Virus record (IMG/VR): IMGVR_UViG_2541047126_000026
Length of the DNA: 39,662 bases
Origin: a virus
Taxonomy: Duplodnaviria > Heunggongvirae > Uroviricota > Caudoviricetes
Direction: 5' to 3' (one strand)
Shown here: in pieces, positions 31,815-37,431 of the stretch
Layout of the letters: each line of letters opens with the position of its first letter
Numbering within the stretch: the stretch's first letter is position 1
Program-made: the position numbers and the translations under genes
Notes under the pieces: model-generated
Seen by the model: the letters and a program-made list of their open reading frames with translations, nothing else
What the model was told of the DNA's origin: nothing
Database searches by the model: none

Positions 31815-32357
31815 TTATTCCTCCGTCAGCGCCACATATTCAGAATGTTTAATCTCCTGGCATTCTTCAGGAATACCCCCTTTTATTTCCCTGCCATAAG
31901 CGCCTACTTTAAACACCACGCACAGGGCATCACGGGAGAGCGACGGGGTCCACCAGGAGTCCATGTTAAACATGGAGGGGATTCTCATTACCCCCAGCTT
32001 TTCACAGAGCCAGACAAGGAAATCAGGACGCTTTCTTAACTCGCGTTCAGCGGCTTCAATCATTGCGGCAATCGCCGGTCCTTCAGGGCATGACTCATCA
32101 GGTCTGGCAATAAAGCACGGTCCGTCCCCGATAAAAGCCACATCATCGCGCTTACGCCAGCCCGCAGGCAGAGCACCAGAAAAATAAAACTCACTGATTA
32201 CGTCCATGGCAAACGGCTTTAAGCGCAATCCGGCAGCGCCTGTATTTTTCAGTAATGCCCGAAGAATACTGTTGCGTAGCGGTAAAACAGTCTGTTGATA
32301 TTTGGTGAAATATTTATTTGTCTGCACACGGTCTAATTTGAAATAAAAATATGCCAT
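31815..32357 (-). CDS. Hypothetical protein (180 aa)
   Basis: ORF directly downstream of gam; no family recognised. Confidence 0.45.
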   Translation of the reverse strand: MAYFYFKLDRVQTNKYFTKYQQTVLPLRNSILRALLKNTGAAGLRLKPFAMDVISEFYFSGALPAGWRKRDDVAFIGDGPCFIARPDESCPEGPAIAAMIEAAERELRKRPDFLVWLCEKLGVMRIPSMFNMDSWWTPSLSRDALCVVFKVGAYGREIKGGIPEECQEIKHSEYVALTEE

Positions 32358-32454
32358 ATATCCTGTTCCTTATTTTCAGTTTACAGGCGCAGGCAGTCCC
32401 CTGACGCGAGCGCCATACTTAAAACGATGTGATATTTAAAGATTTAATGCGGTG

Positions 32455-32985
32455 TTATTTATTCAGTCCGGCGTCCTGTTCAAAAGGCTCGACATAAAAA
32501 CTTTCAGCGCCTTTATTCACCTTAATACCGGCAATGCCTTTCACTGCATCCGGCTCCGCCAGGACCGCTTCCTTGTTCACTTCCTCTTTCGTGCGGATGA
32601 ATCGCTCAAGCCCCATACGGCGCAGCATTTCAATCACACCTTCCACATCACGGCTGACGCTGCATGATGGATTTCCCAGCCGCCATGACACTGTTCCGGT
32701 GGTCAGATTGGCTGTTTTGGTTTTGCCGCCGTTCGTCAGCTCATCGCGGTTGGTTTTGCACCAGTCCTGAATCCCCTTAAAAAGCACTTTGATTTCTTTT
32801 TTAAGGTTTTCAATCTGCGGCGTATAACGGGCGGTGATTTCTGCCACTTCATCATTCATCGCTGTTTCCAGGCGCAGCGCCTCTCGCTGAATATCGCCCA
32901 GGGTGCGGATATCGCGGCTGACCTCTTCACGGGTCTGCGGTGCCGCCTCTGCTGCGGCCTTTAATTTTGTAACGCGTTTTGCCAT
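32455..32985 (-). CDS. gam: Gam host-nuclease inhibitor (Ku-like DNA end binding)
   Basis: 176 aa; strong match to Mu Gam as I recall it (LGDIQREALRLETAMNDEVAEIT, NRDELTNGGKTKTANLTTGTVSWR, FIRTKEEVNKEAVL). Confidence 0.85.
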   Translation of the reverse strand: MAKRVTKLKAAAEAAPQTREEVSRDIRTLGDIQREALRLETAMNDEVAEITARYTPQIENLKKEIKVLFKGIQDWCKTNRDELTNGGKTKTANLTTGTVSWRLGNPSCSVSRDVEGVIEMLRRMGLERFIRTKEEVNKEAVLAEPDAVKGIAGIKVNKGAESFYVEPFEQDAGLNK

Positions 32986-32996
32986 TTTGTTTTTCC

Positions 32997-33290
32997 TTAT
33001 TGCAGTGTGCCTGATGCTTTATGCACGCGGTGGCGTTTAATGATGGCATCCGCCCCAAAAGCCTGTACAGATGCCTGAAATTCCGCTGAGAGAAACTGAA
33101 TAAGTTCAGGACTGTGATACTGGAGAATACTTGCATAAACGTCACAGAGTGACGTCGGCCTGTTATTCGTATCACGTTCTGTTTTTACATCCACACCAAT
33201 CTTTTCATGCACTTCAACACAGTCATTGCCTGCCGGTTTTTCGTCATGCGAAACATGCTTAAATTCAAAAATAACGCGTACTTTGCTCAT
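32997..33290 (-). CDS. Hypothetical small early protein, paralog A; track ORF to 33317
   Basis: Begins MSKVRVIFEFKHV at the internal Met; shares its N-terminal motif with the adjacent upstream gene. Confidence 0.45.
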   Translation of the reverse strand: MSKVRVIFEFKHVSHDEKPAGNDCVEVHEKIGVDVKTERDTNNRPTSLCDVYASILQYHSPELIQFLSAEFQASVQAFGADAIIKRHRVHKASGTLQ

Positions 33291-33294
33291 GGAA

Positions 33295-33567
33295 TTACCC
33301 CTGCTGATTAAATTCATTACCTTTAATAACCCCGGAACGCATGCTCATATCTTTCATGAGCGCACTGGCTTTCATTGCCACAAGTTCAGCAAAGTCTCTG
33401 CTTTCCGCGAGCATAACCACCCCAAAAATCATGGCGGGTCCATCACCTTTCTGCTTTATCCCGGTTGAACGTATGTCCAGACTTACCCCCATGCGCACTG
33501 TTCCATCAGCGTTTTTATGGATAACGTGCTCCTTGTATTCGAAAATAATGCGTACGACTTTACTCAT
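33295..33567 (-). CDS. Hypothetical small early protein, paralog B (90 aa)
   Basis: Begins MSKVVRIIFEYKEHV; N-terminus paralogous to the downstream gene. Confidence 0.45.
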   Translation of the reverse strand: MSKVVRIIFEYKEHVIHKNADGTVRMGVSLDIRSTGIKQKGDGPAMIFGVVMLAESRDFAELVAMKASALMKDMSMRSGVIKGNEFNQQG

Positions 33568-33845
33568 CCTCTGGTCCTCGTTCTGTTTGGATAACTGACC
33601 CGGCGTCTGACCTCACGGCAGAACCGAATCATGGCATTAAAGGCTTCTTCCTCCGTCACCGCTTCCGGTATCCCCGGAACCAGTAACTGCTCCTGTTCAT
33701 CACGTCCATGACGCGCCATAACCTCAATCACATGCCGTACCGTGGCAGGCTTTCCGGCAACTATCGGCAATGCACCTTCCGGCAGGACGTAACCAAACTC
33801 AATAAGACCACTCGACCACGCCCATGCAATGAGATTTTTTTTCAC
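33564..33845 (-). CDS. Hypothetical early protein (93 aa)
   Basis: ORF in the early operon; synteny only. Confidence 0.4.
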   Translation of the reverse strand: MKKNLIAWAWSSGLIEFGYVLPEGALPIVAGKPATVRHVIEVMARHGRDEQEQLLVPGIPEAVTEEEAFNAMIRFCREVRRRVSYPNRTRTRG

Positions 33846-33846
33846 C

Positions 33847-34113
33847 TCACACCTCCCAGTAAACCGTGCAGCCGCTGATGCGGGTGGCCTTCACACGGCG
33901 GCGCAGGCCGTTGGTCTGTATGGTGATTTCAATTTCACCGGTTCCCTGCACGTTGCCTACCGGCGGCGTGGTTTTCAGTGCAAAACGTTGTGGGTAGCGC
34001 TTACTGCGTTCCAGTACCGCACCGGCAAGTTCGGTCAGACGGCGCGCGCTGTTCAGGGAGTCGAATAAATTCATTTTGTTACCGCAGGATTGCATATTCA
34101 TATAACACCTCAT
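33847..34113 (-). CDS. Hypothetical early protein (88 aa; start uncertain)
   Basis: ORF in the early operon; synteny only. Confidence 0.4.
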   Translation of the reverse strand: MRCYMNMQSCGNKMNLFDSLNSARRLTELAGAVLERSKRYPQRFALKTTPPVGNVQGTGEIEITIQTNGLRRRVKATRISGCTVYWEV

Positions 34114-34341
34114 TTAGCTGACTTGTTTCGCACCAACAGAACGGCATATTCCGCTGTAAACTTCTGTCGCACCTTCGCGATCAAGTCCGGCAGATATCAC
34201 CATTCGTGTGCGGTCATTAAATTCAAAAAGTAAATCGCCACATTCTTTATTTTCGGCCAGTGAAATCACCTTCACGTTATCGAAATTAACCAGGTAAAAG
34301 CGTCCGTAAATATCAGGAATATAAAATACCGCCATAATCAC
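34114..34341 (-). CDS. Small early protein at the Kil position (75 aa)
   Basis: Immediately downstream of B and the same size as Mu Kil (74 aa); positional inference only. Confidence 0.35.
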   Translation of the reverse strand: MIMAVFYIPDIYGRFYLVNFDNVKVISLAENKECGDLLFEFNDRTRMVISAGLDREGATEVYSGICRSVGAKQVS

Positions 34342-35270
34342 ACCTGTGAGAGTAATTCAGGGTTGGTATAAACCTCTTTAAAGGCCGCATTAATATGTTT
34401 TTCTGTCAGCGCCGCACCTTCACCGCTGGCGGTGAGCCACGCCTGGTTAAGCGTATGTGTCAGAACGCGTAACGCTCCCGGCTTTTCAGCGATAGCCTGC
34501 ATGACGGCCAGCTCGGCCTCACCACTGATACCCCATGCCCTGGCAATGGCCAGCACATCCGCCTTTTTGGCCTTGCGAAGTTGTTTTGTACGGGCAAGAC
34601 GGCTGAACAGGCGCGATAAATCATCAAAGGCGCGGCGTCCACCTTTAAACAATCCGCGCGGGTTACCAATAAGCACCATCCCGATCCCCGTGGCGTCCTG
34701 AATTGCCCGGAGTTGCTCCAGACCGTCAATACCAAGATGATCCGCCTCATCCACAATCACCAGTCCACGCGTTCCCATCAGGCGACGGCGGATGGCGCGG
34801 GATAATGCCCCTTTGTTCGCGCGGGTGTAATCAATCCCCAGCGCATCGGCCAGCTCCAGCAGACACTCCGTGACGCTGGAGTGCGCGGGTGACAGGGTGA
34901 TCATCCAGGTGTTTGGTTGCTCCTGGCAGTAATTACGGGCGGTGGCCGTTTTACCTACCCCCGGCACGCCCACAATGACGTTAATACAGCCCATCAGGCG
35001 AACCGCCTGAAACAGTGCGCGCAGCTCCTGAACTGTCTGCGTTTCCACAAACTGCGGCGGTTCCGGCAGTGCGCTTTGTTTATTCCAGTTCTCATACCAG
35101 GAACGCAGGGAAGCAGCCACAGCGGCGTTATCGCCTTTATATTTCCCCTTGCGGAAAGCCGATAATGTGCCGTCGGAAATTCCCGCCTCTCTGGCGATGG
35201 CATACTGCGTCAGTACGCCGCCATCAATAAGTTCATCAATGGTCTTGATTACATCGTTAATATCAGTCAT
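34338..35270 (-). CDS. B: MuB-like ATP-dependent target DNA activator
   Basis: 310 aa; Walker A GVPGVGKT; N-terminal HTH; directly downstream of the transposase. Confidence 0.9.
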   Translation of the reverse strand: MTDINDVIKTIDELIDGGVLTQYAIAREAGISDGTLSAFRKGKYKGDNAAVAASLRSWYENWNKQSALPEPPQFVETQTVQELRALFQAVRLMGCINVIVGVPGVGKTATARNYCQEQPNTWMITLSPAHSSVTECLLELADALGIDYTRANKGALSRAIRRRLMGTRGLVIVDEADHLGIDGLEQLRAIQDATGIGMVLIGNPRGLFKGGRRAFDDLSRLFSRLARTKQLRKAKKADVLAIARAWGISGEAELAVMQAIAEKPGALRVLTHTLNQAWLTASGEGAALTEKHINAAFKEVYTNPELLSQV

Positions 35271-35340: not shown

Positions 35341-37431
35341 TCAGGCCAGCGGGTCATTTTCTTTTAATTTCGCTTCGAGCAACTGCAATCCCCGCTGGAA
35401 ATTGCGCTCGTATTCTTCATCAGGCTCATCATCAACGGCAGGTTGCTGAACGGCCACCGTATTACCTACCGGGCGATAGATGTTTTCCAGCCAGGGCTCC
35501 TGCGGCTTGTGCTCCAGCACGTTGACAACCTCATCCTCGGCATCACGGATTTTTTCCTCTGCGCGTTTACGCATGCCTTTAAGGCGTTGCTGCTGTTTGT
35601 AGTATTCCGCGCTAACCGGGAAGGCTTCGCGTTTATTACCGTCCCATACCGCCTCGCAAATCACGCTGCCATCCAGGCGACGTACGGTAATTCGTTCGGC
35701 ATCATGAATGTCATAGCTGATAAGCACCTTGCGGCCATGCTCATCACGCAGCTCGGGCGCGTAGTAAATATTATTCAGCCAGCGTATTTCACAGCGTCTT
35801 ACAGGGCGTTCCACCATCGGCCGGAACATGTCCCGCAATTCCACATCGGACAGCCATTCAATTTCCGTGTCCTCTTCCGCCAGGCGTTTTTTTCTGAACT
35901 CCGCCGGGCTGTAATGCTTGCCGTTCGGCTTCACCGGTAATTCATCGTGCGGCCGGTTGTTGTACCACTCAACACCATCACGAATGGCATCAATCAGTTC
36001 AGACCAGGACGGTAAATCACGCATCGCTGACTGCTGCCGGGCGTTCAGCCGTTTGCCCTGTTGCAGGGCAGTAAATGCCGAGCGTAAATCGCGGTTGGTT
36101 TTGCGTAACGTCTCGCGATCTGCACCTTTCCCGAAATAGGTGCGGTATTTACGGGCTATGCGCATCGGTAATGTGCGGTTAAGCCGTTCGATAATGCCTC
36201 GTCCCTGCGGATTACCGGCAATCCCGGTCGGGTGATTAATCCCCAGTCGCGGCAGTATCCCCACAACCTCCTTATCCAGGATGTCGGCGGTTTCCCCGGA
36301 GCCGTTATCCGAGTAATACAGAAACGGTTTGCCGTGATGGCGAATGCCGTGCTGTATGGCACCGGCTACGGCGAAAACATTTTCAGCCAGGTCAAGGCTC
36401 CAGCCCACCACAAAGCGCGTGCCACCGTCGATAACAAAGGTCACTTCCGGTGCAAATGGCCGACCGTGAACCGGGTGTGCGCATTTCAGCTTCATGCCGT
36501 GACCGTCACCAATCCAGACATAATTCACCGGCATTCTGGACCAGTCGCGGCGCGTGAATCCCTCAAGCTGACGGTATTCACTGCCGGTCACCCGGCCTTT
36601 TTGTTTCACCACTTCCGGCAGTTTCTTCATTGCGCGGCGAATGGTGTCATAAGAGGGCATGATATCGAGCATATAAGGCTCATCAGCGTGCCGGAGCCGC
36701 CATTCAGCAACAAAATCCTCGTAAGCCTCGGTCATTGGTCGGCCGTTTGACTGGCGATACTGCGCCAGAAATTCGGGCAGCCAGTTAATATCTTCGGCTT
36801 TTATTTCCTGGCGTTTACCCGGTGCCAGTAAAAGCAGGCGTTCAGCGGCGTTCTGTGCCTTGTTAAAGGCCGCAATCCATCGCTTCAGCGTGATTTCACT
36901 CAACGCGCGGCTGTTTCCCTTTTTGGCGTTCGCCGTCTCAACCATTGCCACAATGCGCTCGTCCAGCTGTGAACGTGCCAGGTTGTCAACGATAAACCGG
37001 ATAGCCTTCGCGCAGCTGAAACCGGGTTGTTGCGCGACTTTCATCACTTCGCTGACGATCGCGATTCGTGCATCAGCCACCTGGCGCTGGTTTTCAGTCA
37101 GGGCATTGAGGCGTTCGACCATCAGTTGTGGTGATCCGCGATATGCCTCCACCGCATCAACCACGTCAGATGAGCGTCTGGCCTTTGTCACCACCGGAGC
37201 CGGTGATTCATCGGCTTTTTGCGTCATCAGTTGCAGGGCATAACGTTCACGTAATGCCTGCTGCGTCACTTCAGGTAAACAGTCGATGCTGTATTCAGTT
37301 GCTTTAGAGCCTGAGCGACGACGGGAACAACAGCTTTTCCCTTGTACGTAACGTTGTAATGCCTGGCGAATACCTTTTGTTGTAGCAGGCATTCCGGGCG
37401 CGCCAATCAGTTCTTTTGCAATGACATACAT
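35341..37431 (-). CDS. A: MuA-like DDE transposase
   Basis: 696 aa; N-terminal end-binding region, DDE core, acidic C-terminus; between ner and B. Confidence 0.9.
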   Translation of the reverse strand: MYVIAKELIGAPGMPATTKGIRQALQRYVQGKSCCSRRRSGSKATEYSIDCLPEVTQQALRERYALQLMTQKADESPAPVVTKARRSSDVVDAVEAYRGSPQLMVERLNALTENQRQVADARIAIVSEVMKVAQQPGFSCAKAIRFIVDNLARSQLDERIVAMVETANAKKGNSRALSEITLKRWIAAFNKAQNAAERLLLLAPGKRQEIKAEDINWLPEFLAQYRQSNGRPMTEAYEDFVAEWRLRHADEPYMLDIMPSYDTIRRAMKKLPEVVKQKGRVTGSEYRQLEGFTRRDWSRMPVNYVWIGDGHGMKLKCAHPVHGRPFAPEVTFVIDGGTRFVVGWSLDLAENVFAVAGAIQHGIRHHGKPFLYYSDNGSGETADILDKEVVGILPRLGINHPTGIAGNPQGRGIIERLNRTLPMRIARKYRTYFGKGADRETLRKTNRDLRSAFTALQQGKRLNARQQSAMRDLPSWSELIDAIRDGVEWYNNRPHDELPVKPNGKHYSPAEFRKKRLAEEDTEIEWLSDVELRDMFRPMVERPVRRCEIRWLNNIYYAPELRDEHGRKVLISYDIHDAERITVRRLDGSVICEAVWDGNKREAFPVSAEYYKQQQRLKGMRKRAEEKIRDAEDEVVNVLEHKPQEPWLENIYRPVGNTVAVQQPAVDDEPDEEYERNFQRGLQLLEAKLKENDPLA

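What the first reader, a model, noticed from the sequence alone, without database searches (positions are those of the whole stretch)
32997..33567. Adjacent small early genes with a duplicated N-terminal motif
Two neighbouring genes start MSKVRVIFEFKHVSH and MSKVVRIIFEYKEHVIH and diverge afterwards. This suggests a tandem duplication followed by divergence, or domain shuffling on a common N-terminal module.
Basis: seen in the sequence. Interest (0 to 1): 0.4.

Follow-up and report, generated by a model that had tools for sequence, protein, structure and literature searches.

The report
Tandem paralogous Mu-like early genes
Two neighbouring small early genes of a Mu-like E. coli prophage are very diverged full-length copies from one fast-evolving, uncharacterised gene family, and their shared first ~11 residues are that family's most conserved strand and a point where gene bodies are swapped; this is a tidy but ordinary case of phage accessory-gene evolution.

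Summary
On the minus strand, P1 (33295-33567, 90 aa) and P2 (32997-33290, 97 aa) start MSKVVRIIFEYKEHVIH and MSKVRVIFEFKHVSH, 12 of 17 identical. They lie between Kil/w93 and Gam in the early operon of a Mu-like prophage. Pairwise similarity stops after residue about 17. Profiles show the proteins are homologous over about 76-83 residues: hhalign gives 93% probability, and the signal survives removal of the N-terminus. A P2-superfamily HMM picks P1 and nothing else among 5359 segments.

P2 is the conserved gene just upstream of Gam or DUF3164 in Mu-like prophages of E. coli, Salmonella, Klebsiella and Serratia. It is hypervariable there while its flanks are 89-98% identical. P1 is an extra copy found only in E. 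coli. P1's body is closest to a Klebsiella/Salmonella subtype, while its N-terminus matches the local E. coli type. P2 allele classes are DNA-identical through codon 11 and then diverge. The motif is therefore both the family signature and a recombination boundary.

The P2 model is a long beta-hairpin plus two helices with no informative structural match. Function is unknown; an accessory host-takeover or counter-defence role is inferred. Interest is low to moderate.

The parts
33295..33567 (-). P1: 90-aa early gene (PHROG 4107, unknown function). It is the E. coli-specific extra copy of the family.
   Evidence: ORF. phrog_4107 E 1.1e-61. 41 homologues, all E. coli where a source names the organism, at least 73% identical over full length. 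dN/dS 0.39. Hit by the P2-superfamily HMM at 14-24 bits over positions 1-83.
32997..33290 (-). P2: 97-aa early gene (PHROG 2230, unknown function). It is the conserved family member immediately upstream of gam.
   Evidence: ORF. phrog_2230 E 1.1e-39. 161 cluster-level homologues in E. coli, Salmonella, Klebsiella and Serratia. AF2 pLDDT 85.4. dN/dS 0.35.
33517..33567 (-). P1 codons 1-17 (MSKVVRIIFEYKEHVIH): N-terminal family motif, predicted beta-strand 1.
   Evidence: M1 S2 K3 V5 I8 F9 E10 Y11 invariant in 21 sequences. Strand 4-18 in the low-confidence model.
33246..33290 (-). P2 codons 1-15 (MSKVRVIFEFKHVSH): N-terminal family motif, predicted beta-strand 1. Codons 1-11 are also conserved at synonymous sites across allele classes.
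   Evidence: In the 85-sequence alignment V6 and F8 are invariant and K3, I7, F10 are nearly invariant; the consensus has E in the next column, where the window P2 has K11. Strand 4-21 in the model. DNA identity 100% through codon 11 between L003 and L034. Nucleotide diversity 0.004.
33291..33306 (-). P1-P2 junction: last P1 codons (CAG CAG GGG), stop TAA, 4-nt spacer TTCC. It contains the AGGGG ribosome-binding site of P2 and lies in the least diverse stretch of the region.
   Evidence: Sequence. Constant 4-nt spacing in the IMG/VR loci. Diversity 0.00-0.05.
33564..33567 (-). ATGA overlap of the w93 stop with the P1 start (translational coupling).
   Evidence: Coordinates. The same overlap joins w93 to the single family member in L068 and in Salmonella L044.
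33564..33845 (-). w93: upstream neighbour (PHROG 1518), variably present. Its 3' end plus the N-terminal motif form the constant left border of the cassette.
32455..32985 (-). gam (host-nuclease inhibitor Gam, PF07352): downstream neighbour and right border of the cassette.
   Evidence: PF07352 E 1.5e-41. 57% identical to Mu Gam.

Best explanation
P1 and P2 are tandem, full-length paralogues of one family of small (about 10 kDa) cytoplasmic early proteins. The family is specific to Mu-like prophages of Enterobacterales.

The ancestral state is one copy, placed between w93/Kil and Gam (or DUF3164) in the early operon. In the E. coli lineage a second, very divergent family member (P1) sits in front of the resident one.

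The shared motif, MSK-(V)-R-[VI]-I-F-E-[FY], is beta-strand 1 of a fold made of a long beta-hairpin followed by two helices. It is the most conserved segment of an otherwise fast-evolving protein. Together with the w93 3' end and ribosome-binding site, it is also the constant left border behind which gene bodies are exchanged, added or lost by recombination between related phages. That is why the two neighbours look alike at the start and unrelated afterwards.

Shown: paralogy, family distribution, hypervariability in a conserved context, the recombination boundary, purifying selection, and operon placement.

Inferred:
- The proteins are dispensable accessory factors made early after induction that bind a variable host or defence target through the variable hairpin tip and C-terminal tail.
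- The doubly hydrophobic strand 1 (V-I-F-x-F) is a core or dimer interface.
For: Homology:
- hhalign P1 family against P2 family: 84.6% probability over 42 columns, 87.6% over 65 columns, and 89.5-93.3% over 75-76 columns as the P2 alignment deepens.
- After removing the N-terminal motif the match stays collinear, score 27.3, E about 5e-5. None of 300 column shuffles reach it (maximum 18.6), and the reversed control scores 6.5.
- Five neighbouring gene families and Mu gp5-gp9 all give at most 0.4% probability.
- The P2-superfamily HMM, run on 5359 six-frame segments from 57 loci, hits only P2-like ORFs and then P1 (14-24 bits, positions 1-83). The next hit has E 3.9.
- BLASTP of P1 against E. 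coli allele-2 P2 aligns residues 1-80 with 1-84.
- Predicted secondary structure is similar: P2 has strands 4-21 and 24-39 and helices 48-58 and 60-77, pLDDT 85. P1 has strands 4-18 and 24-38 and a helix 57-73, low confidence.

Distribution:
- There is a single copy upstream of Gam or DUF3164 in Salmonella, Klebsiella and Serratia, and no P1 there.
- P1 and P2 occur together in about 271 of 274 places in complete E. coli genomes.
- Single-copy E. coli variants exist: L036 and L068.

Fast evolution:
- P2-like proteins are 28-86% identical where flanking DUF3164 and w93 are 89-98% identical.
- Mean dN is 0.10-0.15, against 0.013-0.017 for MuB and Gam. dN/dS is 0.35-0.39, so the genes are coding and under purifying selection.

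Recombination boundary.

Operon: no promoter on either strand and no terminator on the coding strand. An ATGA overlap and a 4-nt spacer indicate translational coupling.
Against: - The P1 family alignment is very shallow (Neff 1.3). hhalign probabilities stay at or below 93%, and the P1 structure model is poor (pLDDT 58), so fold identity is not demonstrated.
- Column shuffling is a liberal control because it destroys secondary-structure periodicity.
- Hypervariability could reflect relaxed constraint on a dispensable gene rather than an arms race; dN/dS is below 1.
- Synonymous-site conservation of P2 codons 1-11 could reflect constraint on the translation-initiation region rather than a recombination breakpoint.
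Confidence: 0.75

Rival explanations
1. Chimera only. P1 and P2 share just a transplanted N-terminal module of about 15 residues (domain shuffling or partial gene conversion), and their bodies are evolutionarily unrelated.
For: Pairwise similarity ends at residue about 17, and the remainder is at chance level. P1's N-terminus and body have different nearest relatives. L068 shows a P1-like 5' end fused to a P2 body. P2 allele classes switch from 100% to about 65% DNA identity after codon 11.
Against: The body-only profile comparison is still significant and collinear. Body-only P1 HMM hits P0163 at 18 bits, E 8.7e-6 among 84 sequences. BLASTP of P1 residues 28-72 against P0163 residues 31-75 gives E 2.3e-4. 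Length and secondary-structure order match. Unrelated neighbouring families score at most 0.4%.
Confidence: 0.12
2. Recent in-situ tandem duplication of the resident E. coli P2 gene, followed by extremely rapid divergence of the upstream copy. Only the N-terminus was held constant.
For: The genes are adjacent, in the same orientation and of similar length. P1's N-terminus matches E. coli P2 at 9 of 12 positions and the Salmonella type at 5 of 12 (my count from the sequences). P1 is restricted to E. coli.
Against: Without the N-terminus, E. coli P2 proteins rank 43-83 of 84 against the P1 profile (at most 0.6 bits), while the Klebsiella/Salmonella subtype ranks first. The two 5' ends differ at most synonymous sites. 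P1 is under purifying selection, dN/dS 0.39, not free drift.
Confidence: 0.1
3. Chance or convergence. MSK plus a hydrophobic strand is a common start for small, highly expressed phage proteins, and the resemblance has no evolutionary meaning.
For: The match is short (17 residues). MSK starts are common, possibly for translation efficiency (own knowledge). The single-comparison E-value is only 8e-4.
Against: The score is higher than any of 9453 N-terminal pairs in the window. The motif is invariant within both families. A motif regex found only these two genes in each of about 40 related loci. Profile homology extends well beyond the motif.
Confidence: 0.03

Closest known systems
PHROG 2230 and PHROG 4107 (phage and prophage protein families of unknown function)
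   Same: P2 matches phrog_2230 end to end (E 1.1e-39). P1 matches phrog_4107 end to end (E 1.1e-61).
   Different: PHROGs keeps them as two separate families, each labelled 'unknown function'. The profile evidence here joins them into one superfamily.
Semi-essential early region genes of phage Mu (kil, gp6-gp9, gam)
   Same: Same operon position between B/kil and gam. Same style of short, tightly packed, translationally coupled genes. Dispensability of this region in Mu is textbook knowledge, not tested here.
   Different: No Mu protein is a detectable homologue. BLASTP finds nothing, the A4 HMM finds nothing in the Mu locus, and hhalign gives at most 0.4% for gp5-gp9. The resemblance to Mu gp7 that I saw by eye was not supported.
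Mosaic accessory-gene hot spots of temperate phages (variable cassettes between conserved flanks, for example P2/P4 defence hot spots, PMC9122126)
   Same: A highly variable gene sits between conserved flanks. Alleles are about 60% or even about 30% identical where neighbours are 89-98% identical, with sharp identity breakpoints.
   Different: Here the alternative cassettes are all homologous members of one small family. The left breakpoint lies inside the coding sequence, after codon 11. The genes are in the lytic early operon, not lysogen-expressed, and no defence or anti-defence function is known.

Membership tests
P2 superfamily (PHROG 2230-like, MS(N)K-V-[RQ]-V-I-F-x-F... about 97 aa) | Full-length profile match to the family | tested here: met
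   P2: phrog_2230 E 1.1e-39 and first row of the 85-sequence alignment A4. P1: A4 HMM 14-24 bits over positions 1-83, E 1e-5 to 1e-2 among 5359 segments. hhalign 89-93%.
P2 superfamily (PHROG 2230-like) | Position immediately upstream of Gam or DUF3164 in a Mu-like early operon | tested here: met
   P2: yes in the window and in all loci examined. P1: one gene further upstream, so it is adjacent to the family member rather than to gam.
P2 superfamily (PHROG 2230-like) | Shared fold (long beta-hairpin plus two helices) | tested here: inconclusive
   P2 model is confident (pLDDT 85.4). P1 model is poor (pLDDT 58.3) with matching hairpin and last helix, but the first helix is modelled as a strand.
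Phage Mu gp7 (E6) family | Detectable sequence or profile similarity | tested here: not met
   HMM bits at most 1.8. hhalign probability at most 0.4%.
Mu Gam (PF07352) and Kil (PF26843) families | Pfam domain match | tested here: not met
   No Pfam family for P1 or P2 at E up to 1. The neighbours carry these domains instead.
Known anti-phage defence system components (PADLOC-DB) | HMM match to any defence-system protein | tested here: not met
   No hits at E up to 1.
Known anti-defence or host-takeover proteins with solved structures | Sequence or fold match to a characterised inhibitor | tested here: not met

The most novel reading that the evidence does not exclude
The family is a diversity cassette of the Mu-like early operon: a hypervariable counter-defence or host-takeover inhibitor. 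Its conserved N-terminal strand would serve two purposes. It would be an oligomerisation interface, possibly allowing P1-P2 heterodimers. Its 5' coding sequence, with the w93 junction, would be a built-in recombination anchor that lets phages swap, stack or drop alternative bodies. Carrying two divergent cassettes in tandem, as in the E. coli O157-type prophage, would broaden the range of targets neutralised.
Probability: 0.2. Interest if true: 0.55.

Novelty: new member of a known kind. Interest (0 to 1): 0.3.

Why it matters
Its importance is modest. It joins two 'unknown function' PHROG families into one superfamily. It defines a small, fast-evolving gene family that marks the position upstream of gam or DUF3164 in enterobacterial Mu-like prophages. 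It also gives a clean example of a conserved N-terminal coding segment that is both a structural core and a recombination boundary for cassette exchange.

The prophage is found in 232 of 5426 complete E. coli genomes, and many of the listed examples are O157:H7 or other STEC strains. If the family proves to be a counter-defence or host-takeover factor, the natural allele series (about 25-97% identity) would be a ready-made specificity panel.

Tried and rejected
- **Mu gp7 (E6).** It looked similar by eye (MAKVIIEIK..., similar length). HMMER and hhalign do not support it, so I dropped it.
- **No Mu homologue.** BLASTP of all window early proteins against Mu gp5-gp12 finds no Mu homologue of P1 or P2. 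Only Gam, gp11 and weakly Kil correspond. My first attempt read the wrong record and is void.
- **Isolated phages.** tblastn of P1, P2 and a Salmonella-type member against 50,697 phage records found only two Stx phages carrying an inserted Mu-like element. The family is essentially known only from prophages.
- **Locus scans.** The search for related loci with the 85-sequence alignment failed because no stretch was conserved enough. The MuB-anchored genome scan returned only 11 distant loci, none with a family member.
- **DNA-repeat or RNA-element explanation.** Rejected. The two 5' ends share no exact run longer than 7 nt, and neither gene's DNA cross-hits the other.
- **Literature.** Two searches found nothing on these genes.

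Full report
**Context.** The window is almost entirely a Mu-like prophage read on the minus strand. The early region runs as follows:
- transposase A, 35341-37431
- MuB, 34338-35270
- a 75-aa gene, 34114-34341
- a Kil-family 88-aa gene, 33847-34113
- a 93-aa gene, here called w93, 33564-33845
- the two genes of the finding
- Gam, 32455-32985 (PF07352, 57% identical to Mu Gam)
- a 180-aa gene
- a Mu gp11 homologue

The same 1-kb region occurs in 232 of 5426 complete E. coli genomes. Many of the listed examples are O157:H7 or other STEC strains, and every gene there is annotated 'hypothetical protein'. There is no promoter-like site on either strand and no terminator-like site on the coding strand in 32300-34400. 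w93 and P1 overlap by ATGA, and P1 and P2 are 4 nt apart with P2's AGGGG ribosome-binding site inside the end of P1. The genes are therefore internal, translationally coupled members of the early operon.

**Observation.** P1 (33295-33567, 90 aa) starts MSKVVRIIFEYKEHVIH. P2 starts MSKVRVIFEFKHVSH at 33290 and ends at 32997 (97 aa). The mechanical ORF reaches an upstream ATG at 33317, but all homologues begin at MSK or MSNK.
- BLASTP gives 12/17 identities with two 1-residue gaps, E 8e-4.
- The score of 45 exceeds every one of 9453 pairs of N-terminal 20-mers from the ATG-started ORFs of at least 60 aa in the window (maximum 38). It was reached by 22 of 20000 shuffles.
- After residue about 17, pairwise similarity is at chance level.
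- The DNA of the two 5' ends differs at most synonymous sites. This is protein-level conservation, not a recent repeat.

**Is the similarity limited to the N-terminus?** No.

The P1 family is narrow: 41 clusters, all E. coli where a source names the organism, at least 73% identical over full length. The P2 family looked just as narrow at first. An exhaustive HMMER search then found distant full-length relatives, such as MSNKVQVIFTFE.... A profile-seeded search expanded these to 161 clusters, mainly Salmonella enterica, plus Klebsiella and Serratia, at about 14-40% identity to P2.

As the P2 alignment deepened, the hhalign match to the P1 family lengthened:
- 42 columns at 84.6% probability
- 65 columns at 87.6%
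- 75-76 columns at 89.5-93.3%, E 2e-6 to 3e-7

With the N-terminal motif cut off both alignments, a collinear 51-53-column match remains (score 27.3, E 3-5e-5, probability 67-73%). None of 300 column-shuffled controls reach that score (mean 10.3, sd 2.2, maximum 18.6), and the reversed alignment scores 6.5.

Specificity controls were clean. Alignments of five neighbouring gene families (w75, w88, w93, Gam, w180) and Mu gp5-gp9 give at most 0.4% probability against either family.

Independently, a P2-superfamily HMM was run over 5359 six-frame segments from 57 loci. It hits only P2-like ORFs and then P1 ORFs (14-24 bits, model positions 1-83). The next hit has E 3.9.

The AlphaFold model of P2 is confident: pLDDT 85.4, pTM 0.71, strands 4-21 and 24-39, helices 48-58 and 60-77. 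The P1 model is poor (pLDDT 58.3). It shows the same hairpin (4-18, 24-38) and the last helix (57-73).

I conclude that P1 and P2 are full-length, very diverged paralogues, with confidence about 0.85 for homology.

**Copy number and gene order.**
- 41 IMG/VR loci were fetched with the P2 family. Nearly all of those that extend far enough upstream carry P1 and P2 with the same 4-nt spacing.
- In complete E. coli genomes, P1 is found at 271 places and P2 at 274.
- Exceptions are L036, which has a w93 remnant followed directly by P2, and L068, which has w93 followed directly by a single family gene.
- In Salmonella, Klebsiella and Serratia Mu-like prophages there is always a single copy. It sits immediately upstream of Gam or of DUF3164, which replaces Gam there, and is often preceded by a w93 homologue with the same ATGA overlap. 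There is never a P1.

One copy is therefore the general state, and P1 is an E. coli-lineage addition.

**Rate and mode of evolution.**
- Across Salmonella-type loci the family gene is 28-86% identical while flanking DUF3164 and w93 are 89-98% identical.
- In E. coli, P2 has two allele classes about 60% identical in protein (dS 0.86 between classes). Their MuB, w75, w88, w93 and Gam flanks are about 97-100% identical, and the adjacent P1 is about 92% identical.
- Mean dN of P1 (0.10) and P2 (0.15) is 6-10 times that of MuB and Gam (0.013-0.017). dN/dS is 0.39 and 0.35 against 0.10, which indicates real coding genes that are constrained but fast-evolving.
- Frameshifted, truncated and fused variants exist, for example P0036, an in-frame P1::P2 fusion. 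This is consistent with dispensability.

**The N-terminal motif as a boundary.**
- L003 and L034 are DNA-identical from upstream through P2 codon 11. They then drop to about 65-70% identity until the stop codon and Gam ribosome-binding site.
- Across 30 haplotypes, the least diverse stretch of the whole region is the end of P1, the ribosome-binding site and P2 codons 1-8 (nucleotide diversity 0.00-0.03).
- In L068, the gene after w93 begins ATG AGT AAA ATC GTA CGC, which is the P1-type 5' end with the extra codon, and continues as a P2 body.
- With the N-terminus removed, P1's profile is closest to the MSNKVQVIFTAECE subtype of Klebsiella and Salmonella (P0163, 18.1 bits). E. coli P2 proteins rank 43-83 of 84.
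- P1's N-terminus is nevertheless the E. coli type: 9 of 12 positions match E. coli P2, against 5 of 12 for the Salmonella type (my count from the sequences).

The N-terminus and body of P1 thus have discordant relatives. The simplest reading is that the conserved strand-1 coding segment, together with the w93 junction, is the left recombination border of a cassette. P1 would then be a foreign allele stacked in front of the resident one, or its N-terminus has been homogenised with the resident copy. I cannot separate these two options. A translation-initiation constraint on codons 1-11 is an alternative explanation for the synonymous-site conservation.

The most conserved columns of the 85-sequence alignment are strand 1 (K3, V6, I7, F8, F10, and a consensus E in the next column), V35, the P48 / A53 / I55 / L56 / P61 / I63 / E70 helical core, and G79. 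The hairpin distal half, the loop and the C-terminal tail vary.

My committed inference (probability about 0.4-0.5) is that these are dispensable early accessory proteins. They would act as host-takeover or counter-defence binders whose conserved strand and helices form the scaffold, probably a dimer, and whose variable surfaces track a variable target. This rests on operon position next to Kil and Gam, small size, hypervariability in a conserved context and analogy. It is not shown.

**Verdict.** The 'duplication and divergence' interpretation is supported, with the refinement that the N-terminal motif is the family signature and a recombination border. This is an ordinary kind of phage accessory-gene evolution in an uncharacterised family, so interest is low to moderate.

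Noticed in passing
window 32997-33317 (-): The mechanical ORF for P2 starts at an upstream ATG (33317, MNLISRGNSM...) and overlaps the end of P1 by 23 nt. The start supported by homologues and the ribosome-binding site is 33290. Similarly, 116-aa 'P1' database entries (P0001, P0013) carry a spurious N-terminal extension; in L019, where w93 is deleted, the P1 ORF extends upstream to 116 aa in the same way.
   Followed up: yes
P0036; also P0053, P0061, P0062, and L032, L043, L061, L062, L064: There is a natural in-frame P1::P2 fusion, with P1 residues 1-49 joined to P2 residues 80-97 at a shared 'FG'. Several frameshifted or truncated copies of both genes occur in E. coli and Salmonella prophages. 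This suggests the genes are dispensable or that those prophages are decaying.
   Followed up: partly
L034-L042 versus L003 (equivalent to window 32997-33257): P2 exists as two allele classes about 60% identical in protein within flanks that are mostly 97-100% identical. The switch points are after codon 11 and at the stop codon. 26 of the 233 matching E. coli genome records have a best P2 match of only 60-80% DNA identity, which fits the second class.
   Followed up: yes
window 33564-33845 (-) (w93): w93 matches phrog_1518, labelled 'host nuclease inhibitor', and some RefSeq records use that name for it. It has no Pfam domain and is unrelated to Gam, so the label may be spill-over from the nearby gam gene. 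The gene is variably present: absent or only a remnant in L019, L036, L059, L062, L064 and Serratia L046.
   Followed up: partly
L044, L058-L062, L064-L066 (Salmonella and Klebsiella Mu-like prophages): These relatives carry a DUF3164 protein (212 aa) exactly where Gam sits in E. coli, Serratia and Mu, followed by DUF5420. This suggests non-orthologous replacement of Gam.
   Followed up: no
window 33847-34341 (-): The Kil-family gene (phrog_2679; homologues carry PF26843 in related loci) is the second gene after B here (88 aa). It is preceded by a 75-aa gene of unknown function (phrog_3375). In Mu itself kil directly follows B.
   Followed up: no
LC727881.1 and LC727895.1 (L002): The only 'phage' records matching this region are two Stx-converting phages annotated as carrying an inserted Mu-like phage with a 4-bp target duplication. 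That is a Mu-like element transposed into a lambdoid Stx prophage.
   Followed up: no
E. coli complete genomes: Up to 4 copies of this Mu-like early region occur in one genome (for example strain 48 from deer, NZ_CP166879.1), and one copy is on a plasmid.
   Followed up: no
window 31815-32357 (-): A 180-aa gene between gam and the gp11 homologue has no Pfam hit and no Mu counterpart. A few related loci carry only a distant version at this position (23-38% identical in L019 and L061).
   Followed up: no
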